A DNA stretch of 5,916 nucleotides from a virus (Duplodnaviria; Heunggongvirae; Uroviricota; Caudoviricetes): the IMG/VR virus record IMGVR_UViG_2703718798_000018; one strand, written 5' to 3'. The notes beneath the pieces are model-generated. The model was given only the letters and a program-made list of their open reading frames with translations, had not been told where the DNA came from and did not search any database. Position 1 is the stretch's first letter. Every line of letters starts with the position of its first letter. The position numbers were made by a program, and so were the translations under genes. Shown one piece after another: positions 1 through 5,916 of the stretch.

Positions 1-252
1 TTACCATATTTCGTCACCCGCAGGGGTGGATTTACCCCAGACATCCTGCTCGCTAAGTTCCGCGGCGTTCATGTCACACTGTGCCAGCAGTTCATCAAGC
101 GAGTAGCGCCTGGAGATGGGTGTCAGAATCAGTTGGTTGTTGCTCACCTGCGCTTCCACGCTCTGCCCCGGCTGTAAGTTAAGTTCTTTCATTACGATAT
201 TGGGAATGACCATACCTGCACTGTTCCCCCATCTTTTTATGGTAATACGCAT
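1..252 (-). CDS. chpS: ChpS (ChpBI) antitoxin of the chpSB toxin-antitoxin pair, MazE-like; complete, stop codon at 1-3
   Basis: Translation from the ATG at 252 (MRITIKRWGNSAGMVIPNIVMKELNLQPGQ...DEIW, 83 aa) matches my recollection of E. coli K-12 ChpS essentially residue for residue. AAGGAG sits 6 nt upstream on the minus strand. The ORF track's 85-aa form starts at an upstream GTG (258). Not alignment-verified. Confidence 0.85.
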   Translation of the reverse strand: MRITIKRWGNSAGMVIPNIVMKELNLQPGQSVEAQVSNNQLILTPISRRYSLDELLAQCDMNAAELSEQDVWGKSTPAGDEIW

Positions 253-261
253 CTGCACCTC

Positions 262-1603: not shown

Positions 1604-1903
1604 TTAACCAGTCTTCTTGCCGGAGTGGGATGATTCCGCTTCGCTTTGCCCAATGTGTGCGAGAGCCGGTACCACCTGCCCGGCCTTTGGTTCGACCTCA
1701 TCGAACAAAAACCAGTCACGGTATTTACGGAAACGAGCGTGCCGCAAAAGAAGGATCCCAAAATCAAGAGGCATCTTAGATTTCCCACTTTCATAGCCAT
1801 GATATGTATAGTAATTAATTCCAATTAAATCAGATAGTTCCTTCATTTTCATCCGTTCGGACTCTCTGATAAGTTTTAATTTCTCATTTTGCGGTATTGA
1901 CAT
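1604..1903 (-). CDS. C: Immunity repressor, P2 C-type (99 aa)
   Basis: Translation from the ATG at 1903 is 99 aa, the same length as P2 C. The C-terminal VPALAHIGQSEAESSHSGKKTG resembles the P2 C tail as I recall it. GGAGG lies 11 nt upstream on the minus strand. Position (upstream of int, same strand, divergent from cox) fits P2. Confidence 0.8.
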   Translation of the reverse strand: MSIPQNEKLKLIRESERMKMKELSDLIGINYYTYHGYESGKSKMPLDFGILLLRHARFRKYRDWFLFDEVEPKAGQVVPALAHIGQSEAESSHSGKKTG

Positions 1904-4883: not shown

Positions 4884-5003
4884 GTGATCATCATGCACAC
4901 ACAAAAAAACCGCTTGCCAGCGTTCGCCTGGTCGGGTTACAGTTTTCCCGCACCTCATAAAACGGGTGCCGGGATTTCCACCCCGCCGATAACCAAAGCG
5001 CAC

Positions 5004-5024
5004 AACCGCGCCAGCGGTTTTTTT
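5004..5024 (+). terminator. Candidate intrinsic terminator ending the cox-side operon
   Basis: AACCGC-GCCA-GCGGTT hairpin (6 bp, 4-nt loop) immediately followed by a run of 7 T (5018-5024), about 120 nt downstream of the 184-aa ORF stop. Confidence 0.5.
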
Positions 5025-5065
5025 GTGCGTACTGTATTGCCACGTCTTTTTCGCGTCAGAATTAT

Positions 5066-5141
5066 GGCGGGGCGTACGGGGCCGACTTCGGTCGGGCCGG
5101 GTTCTTTGGTTACCGGTTGTGGAAACCCTGTACGCCTCGCC
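5066..5141 (+). ncRNA. Candidate structured RNA element (about 76 nt): 16-bp closing helix with two G-U wobbles, enclosing a UUCG-capped hairpin and a second short hairpin
   Basis: 5066-5081 (GGCGGGGCGTACGGGG) pairs with 5126-5141 (CCCTGTACGCCTCGCC): 14 Watson-Crick pairs plus 2 G-U, possible only in a plus-strand transcript. Inside are CCGAC-UUCG-GUCGG (5082-5095) and CCGG-N12-CCGG (5097-5116). A possible promoter TTGCCA (5037-5042), 17-nt spacer, AATTAT (5060-5065) lies just upstream. Neither reading frame across it looks protein-like. Prediction only. Confidence 0.3.
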
Positions 5142-5167
5142 ACCCCGAGTTTTCCACCTCTGGATGG

Positions 5168-5184
5168 TGAGTTTTCAAAATTCA
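5168..5184. promoter_or_regulatory. Near-palindrome TGAGTTTTCAAAATTCA upstream of the 75-aa gene; candidate operator or promoter element
   Basis: 8-bp arms with one mismatch around a central C. GAGTTTTC also occurs as a direct repeat at 5147-5154 and 5170-5177. It sits 20-35 nt upstream of the AAGAGG RBS of the ORF at 5204. Confidence 0.3.
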
Positions 5185-5203
5185 CAACCAAAGAGGCCAC
5201 ACC

Positions 5204-5431
5204 ATGGCAAACCGCAAACAACAGCGCGCCCGCGCTGAGCGTCTTCACATCCGGACTGAAATCAACCGCAGACTCCATCGGGCTGCATCTGTCTCCTTCA
5301 TCATGCAGTCAAACGTATTACACCGACTTAACGACGGTATCGCTGCCGGGTATTACGCGGCAGTCTTCAGCTATCTGGCCGAAGACCTGGCAGAACTGCA
5401 AGACCTTATCAACCAGCAACACCACCACTAA
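5204..5431 (+). CDS. Hypothetical small protein (75 aa) with a highly basic N-terminus and an acidic C-terminus ending QQHHH
   Basis: ATG with AAGAGG 7 nt upstream; the N-terminus MANRKQQRARAERLHIRTEINRRLHR is strongly basic (possible nucleic-acid binding). Confidence 0.55.
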   Translation: MANRKQQRARAERLHIRTEINRRLHRAASVSFIMQSNVLHRLNDGIAAGYYAAVFSYLAEDLAELQDLINQQHHH

Positions 5432-5499
5432 ACAACATCCTGAAGCCATCCCGCACCCGTGCGCGGGAGGCTTCCGCACGTCTGTTACCGGAGGTTCTC

Positions 5500-5916
5500 A
5501 TGAAGAACGTTAAGGGACTTTCAGATATTCAGGATTTTTTTAACTGGATGTGGGCAGTGGATCCCCGGCTGGCTTCCCGCCTGAACGACTGGCACGACTA
5601 TTACCGCCGCGCCTGTAAACGGGCCGCCAGACGCGTCACCACATACGGGGATTTCTCCTTCACCGTTGACGACCGTTACCGCGTGGACGTGAAAGGTGAT
5701 GGTGATGGTTTTGGTTTATTTCACATCAACGGAACCGACAGCACCGCCATCAGCTGGTCGTCGTCAGAGATGACGCTTGTTCTGGAAATGACAACGCACA
5801 GCGTGGCCATGAAAGGCATATACACCGCAGAAGACTTTATCGGTGAATACCAGCGCCTTCTCGTGCTGTACCGCGCGGCGTTTCAGGCGGCAACTGCCGG
5901 GGAGTGCGACGCATGA
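5500..5916 (+). CDS. Hypothetical protein (138 aa); complete, stop at 5914-5916
   Basis: ATG with GGAGG 7 nt upstream; no motif recognised. Confidence 0.6.
   Translation: MKNVKGLSDIQDFFNWMWAVDPRLASRLNDWHDYYRRACKRAARRVTTYGDFSFTVDDRYRVDVKGDGDGFGLFHINGTDSTAISWSSSEMTLVLEMTTHSVAMKGIYTAEDFIGEYQRLLVLYRAAFQAATAGECDA

What the first reader, a model, noticed from the sequence alone, without database searches (positions are those of the whole stretch)
5147..5916. Separate two-gene unit (75-aa basic protein plus 138-aa protein) behind its own palindrome-containing control region
These two genes follow the terminator and the structured element, and are preceded by a near-palindrome (5168-5184) and a GAGTTTTC direct repeat. 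This suggests a transcription unit regulated independently of the cox operon. A small basic protein followed by a larger partner is a layout shared by toxin-antitoxin and some abortive-infection or anti-defence modules, though nothing in the sequences proves that. The window ends exactly at the second gene's stop, so any further members of the unit are not visible.
Basis: inference. Interest (0 to 1): 0.45.

Follow-up and report, generated by a model that had tools for sequence, protein, structure and literature searches.

The report
Antisense-RNA-gated antirepressor and replication genes
The two genes are not a toxin-antitoxin pair: they are the first genes behind a phage P1/P4-type antisense-RNA switch (isrK plus C4 RNA) in a P2-like prophage, a known kind of control found here in front of a P4 epsilon-like antirepressor homologue and the phage replication gene.

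Summary
The window is the early end of a P88-like (Xuanwuvirus, P2-family) prophage. The "terminator and structured element" are Rfam isrK (4950-5024) and C4 antisense RNA (5060-5147).

C4's two single-stranded segments are complementary to sites inside isrK and in the leader of the 75-aa gene. These are a' GTGGAAA with a1 and a2, and b' CTTTGGTT with b1 and b2. b2 runs into that gene's Shine-Dalgarno. The layout nearly matches the annotated phage P1 c4-icd-ant region. All three copies co-vary across 15 loci, P4 included.

The 75-aa protein is a homologue of the P4 epsilon antirepressor, and the prophage carries a P2 C-type repressor. The 138-aa protein is a divergent relative of P2 Orf83 (DUF5405). 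In relatives its stop overlaps the start of replication gene A, so the unit continues to the right.

The GAGTTTTC repeat is an accident, because its first copy overlaps the variable a2 site. The near-palindrome is at most a leader RNA hairpin.

Verdict: a new member of a known kind; the toxin-antitoxin reading is not supported. That the epsilon-like protein acts on the phage's own repressor remains inferred and has one observation against it.

The parts
4914..4943 (+). Promoter-like site for isrK (-35 TTGCCA 4914-4919, 18-nt spacer, -10 TACAGT 4938-4943), ending 6 nt before the isrK 5' end
   Evidence: 9 of 12 consensus matches. One search shows a -35/-10 pair at the same position upstream of isrK in 14 other loci although the spacer sequences differ. 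P4 is among them (TTGCCT ... TATAGT), where the site corresponds in position to the promoter I recall as PLE.
4950..5024 (+). isrK / P4 seqA-type RNA. It carries a1 (TTTCCAC, 4975-4981), b1 (AACCAAAG, 4991-4998) and an intrinsic-terminator-like hairpin with a T-run (stem 5004-5019)
   Evidence: Rfam RF01394, 64.3 bits against a gathering score of 50. Terminator scan. Complementarity. Covariation with C4.
5060..5147 (+). C4-type antisense RNA. b' is CTTTGGTT (5104-5111, loop of the second hairpin). a' is GTGGAAA (5119-5125, single-stranded stretch before the 3' strand of the closing stem)
   Evidence: Rfam RF01695, 83.4 bits against a gathering score of 45, full length 1-87. The minimum-free-energy fold agrees with the model. 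Covariation.
5136..5171 (+). Alternative helix between the 3' strand of the C4 closing stem (CTCGCCA, 5136-5142) and TGGTGAG (5165-5171). It presents a2 (TTTCCAC, 5151-5157) in an 8-nt loop
   Evidence: Fold. On alignment A3, 97.1% of cells are paired, 5 of 7 pairs change on both sides, and 0 of 500 shuffles reach the observed score.
5167..5185 (+).
   Evidence: Fold of the processed leader. By eye, the pairs are kept in P88, Shae_phiSM and N51 through wobble changes, weakened in 569R5 and absent in the Sp13-like prophage. The evidence is weak.
5186..5196 (+). b2 target (AACCAAAGA plus a G.U pair at 5195) overlapping the Shine-Dalgarno AAGAGG (5191-5196), 7 nt before the ATG at 5204
   Evidence: b2 pairs 8 of 8 with the cognate b' in 15 of 15 loci and ends 8-12 nt before the start codon in nearly all of them.
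5204..5431 (+). 75-aa homologue of the P4 epsilon (E) antirepressor, with a basic N-terminal half
   Evidence: Pfam PF25738 'Derepression', 29.1 bits against a cut-off of 27. 36% identity over 50 residues to P4 epsilon, E 4e-9. phrog_3688. RefSeq names homologues 'derepression protein'.
5500..5916 (+). 138-aa protein, a divergent and N-terminally extended relative of P2 Orf83 / DUF5405. It has its own Shine-Dalgarno GGAGG upstream of the ATG at 5500
   Evidence: phrog_3237. The P88 121-aa gene at the same position is a remote homologue (hhalign 98.5%). Distant family members reach the PF17399 cut-off. The best viral fold match is a DUF5405 protein. P2 Orf83 (DUF5405) sits directly upstream of P2 gene A and overlaps it.
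5913..5916 (+). ATGA: stop of the 138-aa gene overlapping the start codon of the replication endonuclease gene A, which is cut off by the window end
   Evidence: The window ends GCATGA. In E. coli N51 the 138-aa gene ends at 8037 and the 2.5-kb replication endonuclease gene starts at 8034.
1604..1903 (-). P2 C-type immunity repressor of the prophage (99 aa), the presumed target of the epsilon-like protein
   Evidence: phmmer against the PDB: P2 C protein 2L49/2XCJ, E 9.3e-24.

Best explanation
Positions 4914-5916 are the start of an RNA-gated unit inside the early region of a P88-like (P2-family) prophage. It is built like the immI operon of phage P1 and the immunity region of satellite phage P4.

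Proposed sequence of events:
1. A promoter upstream of isrK transcribes the isrK RNA, which carries sites a1 and b1 and mostly stops at its own terminator.
2. Read-through transcripts contain the C4 RNA, which is probably cut out as a stable RNA of about 85 nt.
3. C4 pairs through a' and b' with a2 and b2 in the leader of the 75-aa gene. Because b2 runs into the Shine-Dalgarno, this blocks translation of that gene.
4. By loss of translation and premature termination, expression of the downstream 138-aa gene and of replication gene A is also prevented.
5. isrK carries the same two target sequences, so it can bind C4 and modulate this block.

The 75-aa protein is a homologue of the P4 epsilon antirepressor. 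It most likely inactivates a P2 C-type repressor by binding it. The 138-aa protein is an Orf83/DUF5405-like accessory protein of unknown activity that is translationally coupled to gpA.

Shown here: the RNA family matches, the complementarities and their covariation, the overlap with the Shine-Dalgarno, the conserved position of the promoter-like site, the protein homologies and the synteny.

Inferred: C4 processing, the translational block and its polarity on downstream genes, the role of isrK, and binding of the epsilon-like protein to the repressor.
For: RNA families and layout:
- Rfam C4 scores 83.4 bits and isrK 64.3 bits, both above their gathering scores.
- The 7-mer TTTCCAC and the 8-mer AACCAAAG each occur on the + strand only twice in 5.9 kb, once on each side of C4, and their complements lie in C4.
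- The layout nearly equals the annotated P1 record. The a2 site starts 4 nt after the C4 end in both. b2 ends 11 nt before the start codon in both.

Covariation:
- In 15 loci, a' pairs 7 of 7 with both a1 and a2 in every locus. There are 9 different a' sequences, and 0 of 198 non-cognate combinations reach 7.
- b' pairs 8 of 8 with b2 in 15 of 15 loci and with b1 in 14 of 15. There are 12 different b' sequences.
- On alignment A3, 99.5% of cells are paired, 14 of 15 pairs change on both sides, and the covariation score is 0.925 against 0.195 in shuffles (0 of 500). Slid controls give 29-52% paired.
- Six P88-like elements carry six different a'/b' combinations, each with matched targets. This holds even though N51 is about 95% identical to the window in this region.

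Comparison with P4 and proteins:
- P4 has isrK, C4 (its CI RNA), epsilon, two ORFs and the replication gene alpha in the same order.
- The promoter-like site is conserved in position, P4 included.
- The 75-aa protein matches P4 epsilon, and the prophage repressor is P2 C-type.
- P4 E binds P2 C (PMC2995052).
- The ATGA overlap with gpA is seen in N51.

Literature:
- In Gifsy-1, the isrK promoter drives read-through into a downstream antirepressor gene, and an RNA of about 80 nt is processed from the region that corresponds by position to C4 (PMC4825925). That this Gifsy-1 region (orf45 / STnc1160) is itself a C4-type RNA is my inference; no Gifsy-1 sequence was scanned here.
Against: - No expression data exist for this element. 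C4 processing, the translational block and polarity on gene A are all inferred from P1, P4 and Gifsy-1.
- The epsilon-like allele does not follow the repressor type. The window and N51 proteins are 96% identical, but their C repressors are only 34% identical.
- P88 and an O157 Sp13-like prophage share a 95% identical epsilon-like protein, but have unrelated repressors. So action on the phage's own repressor is not secured.
- The Pfam hit is only just above its cut-off (29.1 against 27).
- If the isrK terminator and C4 also act on transcripts coming from the early promoter, it is unclear how gene A is expressed during lytic growth.
- No LexA box or other signal input was found.
- The Gifsy-1 study interpreted the corresponding region as a translated small ORF activated by IsrK, not as a repressor RNA.
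Confidence: 0.75

Rival explanations
1. Gifsy-1-type activation. The read-through leader folds by itself into a translationally inactive structure, and the short IsrK RNA acting in trans opens it and switches on the 75-aa gene. The C4-like stretch would then be mainly part of the leader, or a small translated ORF, rather than a trans-acting repressor.
For: This mechanism was shown by experiment for the Gifsy-1 isrK-orf45-anrP locus (PMC4825925). The window has the same isrK family and the same alternative helix involving the 3' strand of C4, which co-varies.
Against: In the window the reading frame that starts at the ATG inside C4 (5064) does not stop at the 75-aa start. It runs on out of frame to 5513, so there is no orf45-like coupling. 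The three-way covariation, with b2 on the Shine-Dalgarno, is what the P1 repressor model predicts. P1 C4 and P4 CI are established trans-acting repressors (the P1 record annotation; the P4 summary). The two models are not exclusive.
Confidence: 0.15
2. The RNA switch is as in the best explanation, but the 75-aa protein does not act on the phage's own repressor. It would instead act on C-type repressors of other resident P2-family prophages, or on another target altogether.
For: The epsilon-like allele is uncoupled from the repressor type. P4 epsilon itself acts on another element's repressor. The gene sits exactly where P1 has icd, a cell-division inhibitor.
Against: There is no similarity to P1 Icd. 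The window and P88 repressors share a nearly identical C-terminal half. Residues Thr67 and Ile70, which matter for E binding in P2 C, lie in the C-terminal half of that protein. One allele could therefore serve several C variants, although the correspondence between the two regions rests on my reading, not on an alignment. P88 and Sp13 yield phage or excise after mitomycin C although C-type repressors lack a cleavage domain (PMC5285337; PMC2669165).
Confidence: 0.2
3. One reading: an autonomous two-gene toxin-antitoxin, abortive-infection or anti-defence module controlled by a palindromic operator.
For: A small basic protein is followed by a larger acidic one, and a near-palindrome lies upstream.
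Against: Neither protein matches a toxin, antitoxin or defence family in Pfam, NCBIfam or PADLOC. Gene 1 belongs to the epsilon family, and gene 2 is Orf83/DUF5405-related and overlaps gpA in relatives. A 68-nt gap separates the two genes. The palindrome is no more than chance gives and is not kept in the Sp13-like relative, and the direct repeat is not conserved.
Confidence: 0.03

Closest known systems
Phage P1/P7 immI operon (c4 - icd - ant)
   Same: The order of parts is the same: promoter, a1 and b1, C4 RNA with b' and a', a2 and b2, then the first ORF. b2 lies on the ribosome-binding site of that ORF. The spacings are nearly identical: a2 starts 4 nt after C4, and b2 ends 11 nt before the ATG. 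The first ORF has a similar size (75 against 73 codons).
   Different: The upstream element is of the isrK type with its own terminator, whereas P1 matches Rfam c4-a1b1. The first ORF is not Icd-like. No large Ant1/2 antirepressor follows. The downstream genes are Orf83-like and gpA, and the host phage is P2-like, not P1-like.
Satellite phage P4 immunity region and left operon (promoter - seqA - CI RNA - seqC ... epsilon - orf151 - orf106 - alpha)
   Same: P4 scores for both isrK (60.8 bits) and C4 (74.9 bits) in the same order, with matched a and b sites and a promoter-like site at the same position. An epsilon gene and then the replication gene follow downstream. The 75-aa protein is 36% identical to epsilon over 50 residues.
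   Different: In P4 a 137-codon ORF lies between seqC and epsilon, and about 107 nt separate isrK from C4. Here the epsilon-like gene is the gene directly gated. The 138-aa protein is not similar to P4 orf151 or orf106. The replication gene is P2-type A, not P4 alpha. This element is a complete helper-type phage with its own C repressor.
Gifsy-1 isrK - orf45 - anrP locus of Salmonella and the same cassette in Stx and other lambdoid phages
   Same: In the lambdoid loci scanned here, an isrK and C4 pair precedes genes annotated as antirepressor or Rha family, about 72% identical in DNA to the window's pair. In several Stx and lambdoid phages the cassette also sits in the early operon just before the replication genes. 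For Gifsy-1 itself, read-through from the isrK promoter and a processed RNA of about 80 nt are shown by experiment.
   Different: The gated gene there is a large Rha/Ant-type antirepressor, and in Gifsy-1 a coupled small ORF is reported. Here it is a 75-aa epsilon-type protein, and there is no coupled upstream ORF. No Gifsy-1 sequence was scanned here, so its membership of the same cassette is inferred from the paper.
P4 epsilon-like gene of prophage Sp13 (P2-like) in E. coli O157 Sakai
   Same: An O157:H7 prophage has the same epsilon-like, 121-aa, replication endonuclease trio behind isrK and C4. I take it to be Sp13-like from its P2-like gene content, without comparing it to the Sakai sequence. 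The Sp13 authors noted the epsilon-like gene and the unexpected mitomycin C inducibility (PMC2669165).
   Different: That paper, in the passages I read, does not describe RNA control. The O157 prophage has an unrelated repressor and another C4 specificity.
P2 Orf83 (DUF5405) - gene A junction
   Same: A small gene of unknown function lies immediately upstream of the replication endonuclease gene and overlaps it. There is remote sequence and fold similarity over the beta-sheet and the two C-terminal helices.
   Different: The 138-aa protein has an extra N-terminal helical part of about 45 residues. It does not itself reach the Pfam threshold. hhalign to P2 Orf83 is weak (E 0.0014, probability 17%).

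Membership tests
C4 antisense RNA (Rfam RF01695) / P1 immI-type control | Covariance-model score above the gathering threshold over the full model | tested here: met
   83.4 bits against 45, model positions 1-87 of 87.
C4 antisense RNA (Rfam RF01695) / P1 immI-type control | Two single-stranded segments (a', b') complementary to a2 and b2 downstream, with b2 on the ribosome-binding site of the first downstream ORF | tested here: met
   a' 5119-5125 pairs with a2 5151-5157. b' 5104-5111 pairs with b2 5186-5193 and beyond, overlapping the Shine-Dalgarno AAGAGG. The geometry matches the P1 record.
C4 antisense RNA (Rfam RF01695) / P1 immI-type control | A second copy of the targets (a1, b1) upstream of C4 in the same transcription unit | tested here: met
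   a1 is at 4975-4981 and b1 at 4991-4998, both inside isrK.
C4 antisense RNA (Rfam RF01695) / P1 immI-type control | Antisense and target segments change together between heteroimmune relatives | tested here: met
   Six P88-like elements carry six different combinations.
C4 antisense RNA (Rfam RF01695) / P1 immI-type control | A stable processed RNA in vivo that represses the downstream genes in trans | not testable with these tools
   This needs a Northern blot or RNA-seq and reporter fusions.
isrK / P4 seqA RNA (Rfam RF01394) | Covariance-model score above the gathering threshold, with its own promoter and an intrinsic terminator | tested here: met
   64.3 bits against 50. Promoter-like site at 4914-4943 and terminator-like hairpin at 5004-5019 with a T-run. 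The promoter position is conserved.
P4 epsilon (E) antirepressor, Pfam PF25738 'Derepression' | Sequence membership | tested here: met
   29.1 bits against a cut-off of 27. BLASTP to P4 epsilon gives 36% identity over 50 residues, E 4e-9.
P4 epsilon (E) antirepressor, Pfam PF25738 'Derepression' | A P2 C-family repressor is available as a partner | tested here: met
   The window gene at 1604-1903 (-) matches the P2 C protein 2L49/2XCJ at E 9.3e-24.
P4 epsilon (E) antirepressor, Pfam PF25738 'Derepression' | Binds the repressor and derepresses the prophage | not testable with these tools
   A structure job for the complex was not available. This needs a two-hybrid or pull-down assay and an induction assay.
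P4 epsilon (E) antirepressor, Pfam PF25738 'Derepression' | The allele follows the repressor type, as expected if the interaction is specific to the phage's own repressor | tested here: not met
   The window and N51 epsilon-like proteins are 96% identical but their C repressors only 34%. The P88 and Sp13-like epsilon-like proteins are 95% identical but the repressors are unrelated.
P2 Orf83 / DUF5405 (PF17399) | Direct profile match of the 138-aa protein | tested here: not met
   The window protein has no Pfam family.
P2 Orf83 / DUF5405 (PF17399) | Transitive homology, similar fold and the same position before gene A | tested here: inconclusive
   Family members P0159 (29.0 bits) and P0161 (21.6 bits) reach the cut-off of 21.6. 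The best Foldseek viral hit is a DUF5405 protein at E 0.025. hhalign to P2 Orf83 gives E 0.0014 but only 17% probability. The position is the same.
Type II toxin-antitoxin module | Recognisable toxin or antitoxin domain in either protein | tested here: not met
   Pfam, NCBIfam and PADLOC give none.
Type II toxin-antitoxin module | A self-contained two-gene operon with a conserved operator | tested here: not met
   Gene 2 overlaps gpA by ATGA in relatives. The palindrome and the direct repeat are not conserved and are no more than chance gives.
P1 Icd (cell-division inhibitor in the same position) | Sequence similarity | tested here: not met
   No BLASTP alignment with E <= 100.

The most novel reading that the evidence does not exclude
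P88-like (P2-family) phages would run two layers of immunity. One is a C-type protein repressor at the early promoter. The other is a fast-diversifying C4 RNA that gates both an epsilon-type antirepressor and the replication initiator gpA. Because the epsilon-like allele is uncoupled from the phage's own repressor type, the protein may serve in conflicts between prophages or between helper and satellite, by derepressing other P2-family residents, rather than in self-induction. The shared module would also tie the origin of the P4 satellite's immunity-epsilon region to helper-type phages.
Probability: 0.15. Interest if true: 0.6.

Novelty: new member of a known kind. Interest (0 to 1): 0.35.

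Why it matters
About a fifth of complete E. coli genomes (1159 of 5426) carry an epsilon-like gene of this kind. In the P88-like elements examined here it sits behind an isrK and C4 pair.

If the model holds, these P2-family prophages have an RNA layer of immunity that also gates their replication gene. It would give a concrete, testable lead on why P88 and Sp13 respond to mitomycin C although their repressor type lacks a cleavage domain.

The many C4 specificities among otherwise nearly identical prophages point to selection for heteroimmunity.

For annotation, genome records often do not mark the RNA genes. ORFs named 'ash family protein', 'hypothetical protein' or 'transcriptional regulator' are laid over them instead.

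Tried and rejected
- Toxin-antitoxin or defence reading: no family hits in Pfam, NCBIfam or PADLOC.
- P1 Icd homology of the 75-aa protein: none.
- Homology of the 138-aa protein to P4 orf151 or orf106: none.
- Structure of the 138-aa protein: the first AlphaFold run, with 13 close sequences, was unusable (pLDDT 54). A second run, with distant homologues from the exhaustive search, gave pLDDT 80.
- LexA box near the module: none. The only near-match in the window is at chance level and lies inside the Myb-like gene.
- GAGTTTTC x2 as a P2 C-type operator: the idea was tempting because the 22-bp spacing equals that of P2 O1/O2. It is rejected because the motif is absent from the region between the C and cox genes, where the early promoter is expected, and copy 1 is not conserved.
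- A b-like 8-mer in the C repressor mRNA (1685-1692): not conserved in P88 or N51, so it is taken as chance.
- Second promoter-like site at 5037-5065, just before C4: its -35 is not conserved among loci, so it is not relied on.
- MAFFT did not keep a2 and b2 in register across all loci. Their covariation was therefore counted with a script, not with the pair-count tool.
Full report
**Observation.** The two ORFs are present as described: 5204-5431 (75 aa) and 5500-5916 (138 aa). The 75-aa protein is basic (pI 9.97). Its N-terminal half is very basic and its C-terminal half is acidic. The 138-aa protein is acidic. The near-palindrome at 5168-5184 (TGAGTTTTCAAAATTCA) has one non-complementary position. 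GAGTTTTC occurs only at 5147 and 5169. The window ends ...GCATGA. Neither small motif stands out statistically. There are 13 near-palindromes of that grade in the window against 8.0 +/- 2.9 in shuffles. There are 6 close 8-mer direct repeats against 2.25 +/- 2.09.

**Context.** The window is the left, early end of a P2-family prophage. In order it holds:
- a MazE-type antitoxin gene, probably of the host;
- an integrase;
- a 99-aa repressor that matches the solved P2 C protein at E 9.3e-24;
- a Cox-family gene and a run of small early genes.

The closest relatives are P88-like phages (genus Xuanwuvirus) and E. coli prophages. The window contains no tRNA gene.

**The 'terminator and structured element'.** An Rfam scan finds isrK at 4950-5024 (64.3 bits, gathering score 50). 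It finds the C4 antisense RNA at 5060-5147 (83.4 bits, gathering score 45, full length). isrK ends in a terminator-like hairpin with a T-run.

C4 has two exposed segments: b' CTTTGGTT (5104-5111, a hairpin loop) and a' GTGGAAA (5119-5125). Their complements occur on the + strand exactly twice each, once on each side of C4:
- a1 TTTCCAC at 4975 and b1 AACCAAAG at 4991, both inside isrK;
- a2 TTTCCAC at 5151 and b2 AACCAAAG at 5186, in the leader of the 75-aa gene.

b2 extends to AACCAAAGAG and so covers the Shine-Dalgarno AAGAGG, 7 nt before the ATG at 5204.

The annotated phage P1 record has the same parts in the same order: promoters, a1, b1, C4, a2, b2, then the 73-codon icd gene. The spacings are almost the same. 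The a2 site starts 4 nt after the C4 end in both, and b2 ends 11 nt before the start codon in both.

**Covariation.** I collected the module from 15 further loci:
- three P88-like phages;
- nine Stx or other lambdoid phages;
- two Klebsiella phages;
- P4 and P1.

The counts below cover the window and the 14 other isrK-type loci. P1, whose upstream element is of the c4-a1b1 type, served only as the annotated reference.
- a' pairs perfectly (7 of 7) with both a1 and a2 in every locus, although there are 9 different a' sequences. None of 198 non-cognate combinations reaches 7.
- The 8-nt core of b' pairs 8 of 8 (G.U allowed) with b2 in 15 of 15 loci and with b1 in 14 of 15. There are 12 different sequences, and non-cognate pairs reach 8 in only 1.5-3.9% of cases.
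- The pair-count tool on alignment A3 gives 99.5% paired cells for a1:a' plus b1:b'. Fourteen of 15 pairs change on both sides. The covariation score is 0.925 against 0.195 in shuffles (0 of 500). Slid controls give 29-52% paired.
- Two more E. coli prophages (N51 and an O157 Sp13-like element) add further specificities, each with matched targets.

Six P88-like elements therefore carry six different a'/b' combinations. N51 does so although it is about 95% identical to the window across this kilobase. This is the pattern expected of an immunity-specificity determinant. It is strong evidence that the pairings are functional.

**Promoter and comparison with P4.** A promoter-like site (TTGCCA, 18 nt, TACAGT; 4914-4943) ends 6 nt before the isrK 5' end. 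A -35/-10 pair sits at the same place in all loci examined, although the spacers differ. In P4 that site corresponds in position to the promoter I recall as PLE.

P4 itself scores for isrK and for C4, which is its CI RNA. Downstream of them come a 137-codon ORF, epsilon, orf151, orf106 and the replication gene alpha. The Gifsy-1 study had already called IsrK a structural homologue of P4 seqA. It showed that the isrK promoter drives read-through into a downstream antirepressor gene, with an RNA of about 80 nt processed from the region that corresponds by position to C4 (PMC4825925). In several Stx and lambdoid phages the same cassette precedes genes annotated as antirepressor or Rha family and lies just upstream of the replication genes.

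The first GAGTTTTC copy (5147-5154) overlaps a2. It therefore changes in relatives with another a' (Shae_phiSM, 569R5, N51, Sp13-like). The second copy lies in a constant stretch. The repeat is thus an accident of this particular specificity.

That constant stretch, TGGTGAG (5165-5171), pairs with the 3' strand of the C4 closing stem (5136-5142). The resulting helix holds a2 in an 8-nt loop. It co-varies: 97.1% of cells are paired, 5 of 7 pairs change on both sides, and 0 of 500 shuffles reach the score.

The near-palindrome itself can form an 8-bp RNA hairpin (5167-5174 with 5178-5185) in which the DNA mismatch is a G.U pair. By eye, P88, Shae_phiSM and N51 keep it through wobble changes, and the Sp13-like element does not. 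I regard it as a possible leader hairpin, not as an operator.

The 22-bp spacing of the repeat equals that of the P2 O1/O2 operators. However, the motif is absent from the region between the C and cox genes, where the early promoter is expected. No LexA box is present.

**The 75-aa protein.** It matches Pfam 'Derepression' (PF25738, 29.1 bits against a cut-off of 27). It aligns with P4 epsilon at 36% identity over 50 residues (E 4e-9). It shows no similarity to P1 Icd. P4 E is an antirepressor that binds P2 C, and P2 C residues Thr67 and Ile70 matter for that interaction (PMC2995052).

The window's repressor is of that family. It shares a nearly identical C-terminal half with the P88 repressor, while the DNA-binding half differs.

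One observation weighs against a simple interaction with the phage's own repressor. The epsilon-like allele does not follow the repressor:
- window against N51: epsilon-like 96% identical, C repressors 34%;
- P88 against Sp13-like: epsilon-like 95% identical, repressors unrelated.

An epsilon-like gene in the P2-like prophage Sp13, and the unexpected mitomycin C inducibility of that prophage, were noted in 2009 (PMC2669165). P88 was also obtained by mitomycin C induction (PMC5285337).

**The 138-aa protein.** Its family is narrow:
- 33 clusters, those with a source name all E. coli or Shigella;
- only 20 proteins at E <= 0.001 among 1.84 billion representatives;
- no tblastn match in the phage collection.

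The best viral Foldseek hit is a DUF5405 protein (E 0.025). Two distant family members reach the DUF5405 cut-off. P2 Orf83, the gene that directly precedes and overlaps P2 gene A, is itself DUF5405. hhalign to P2 Orf83 is weak (E 0.0014). I read the protein as a divergent, N-terminally extended Orf83-like gene. Its activity is unknown.

**Extent and distribution.** In E. coli N51 the 138-aa gene ends 4 nt after the start of the 2.5-kb replication endonuclease gene, an ATGA overlap. The window ends on that ATGA. The unit therefore continues into gpA.

An epsilon-like gene is present in 1159 of 5426 complete E. coli genomes. In most of the hits listed only the first 71 nt match. Only 65 genomes carry this allele pair. 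Among phage records the epsilon-like protein is found only in nine records, all P88-like or Xuanwuvirus phages.

**Mechanism.** The best-supported model is a P1 immI / P4-type RNA switch.
1. The isrK promoter makes isrK, and by read-through it makes C4.
2. C4 binds a2 and b2 and blocks ribosome access to the epsilon-like gene.
3. As in P1 and P4, this also prevents expression of the downstream genes, here Orf83-like and gpA.
4. isrK carries decoy or target copies of the same sites.

The complementarities, their covariation and the synteny are shown here. The processing of C4, the block, its polarity and the antirepressor activity are inferred from P1, P4 and Gifsy-1.

**Verdict.** The finding is real, but it is a new member of a known kind, not a toxin-antitoxin-like novelty. 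Interest is moderate to low, and 0.35 is my judgement. Points of specialist interest are the P4-like immunity-epsilon module inside a helper-type phage, its position in front of gpA, and the uncoupling of the epsilon allele from the repressor type.

Noticed in passing
window 4938-5207 (frame of the 209-aa ORF 4884-5513): The mechanical ORF that runs across isrK and C4 weakly matches Pfam Phage_ASH (22.3 bits, cut-off 26), and the match covers exactly the RNA genes. RefSeq records list an 'ash family protein' among the features under matches that span this region. This protein family may largely be a translation of the conserved isrK and C4 RNA genes.
   Followed up: partly
window 4897-4917 and 5010-5030: A 21-nt inverted copy (90% complementary) of the isrK terminator region lies just upstream of the isrK promoter-like site. 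Read on the - strand it looks like a terminator. It could stop leftward transcription, or it could be a relic of cassette insertion.
   Followed up: no
window 5204-5274; E. coli genomes: In most of the E. coli hits listed, only the first 71 nt of the epsilon-like gene match (about 84-92% identity), and the rest of the gene does not align. There is a sharp mosaic boundary inside the gene. Either the basic N-terminus or an RNA-level element there is under separate constraint.
   Followed up: no
window 1604-1903 (-) and 5204-5431; L001, L018, L020, L003: The epsilon-like allele and the immunity repressor type are uncoupled between prophages. The window and P88 repressors share a nearly identical C-terminal half but differ in the DNA-binding half.
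   Followed up: partly
L004 1146-2297, L011 1273-2106, L007 1147-2304, L010 2444-3061: In several phage records a long ORF annotated as 'transcriptional regulator', 'regulatory protein' or 'hypothetical protein' is laid across isrK and C4 and fused to the downstream gene. The start codons of those genes are probably mis-set.
   Followed up: no
L008 (phage phi191) 2523-2606: An sRNA-Xcc1 match (79.6 bits) lies in front of a second gene annotated as an anti-repressor, downstream of the isrK, C4 and Rha cassette. This would be two different RNA elements before two antirepressor-type genes in one phage.
   Followed up: no
window 1685-1692 (- strand mRNA of the C repressor): The C repressor mRNA contains AACCAAAG, the b-type target of this phage's C4. 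The match is not conserved with the cognate b' in P88 or N51, and about 0.2 such matches are expected by chance, so it is probably a coincidence.
   Followed up: yes
window 1-258 (-): A MazE-family antitoxin gene lies at the window edge next to the prophage integrase (Pfam MazE_antitoxin, E 1.4e-11). From memory it resembles E. coli ChpS. It is probably host DNA flanking the attachment site. No tRNA gene is present.
   Followed up: partly
window 5432-5499: The 68-nt spacer between the two genes contains an imperfect GC-rich hairpin (CCCGCAC...GTGCGCGGG) with no T-run, followed by the Shine-Dalgarno GGAGG of the 138-aa gene. Its role is unknown.
   Followed up: no
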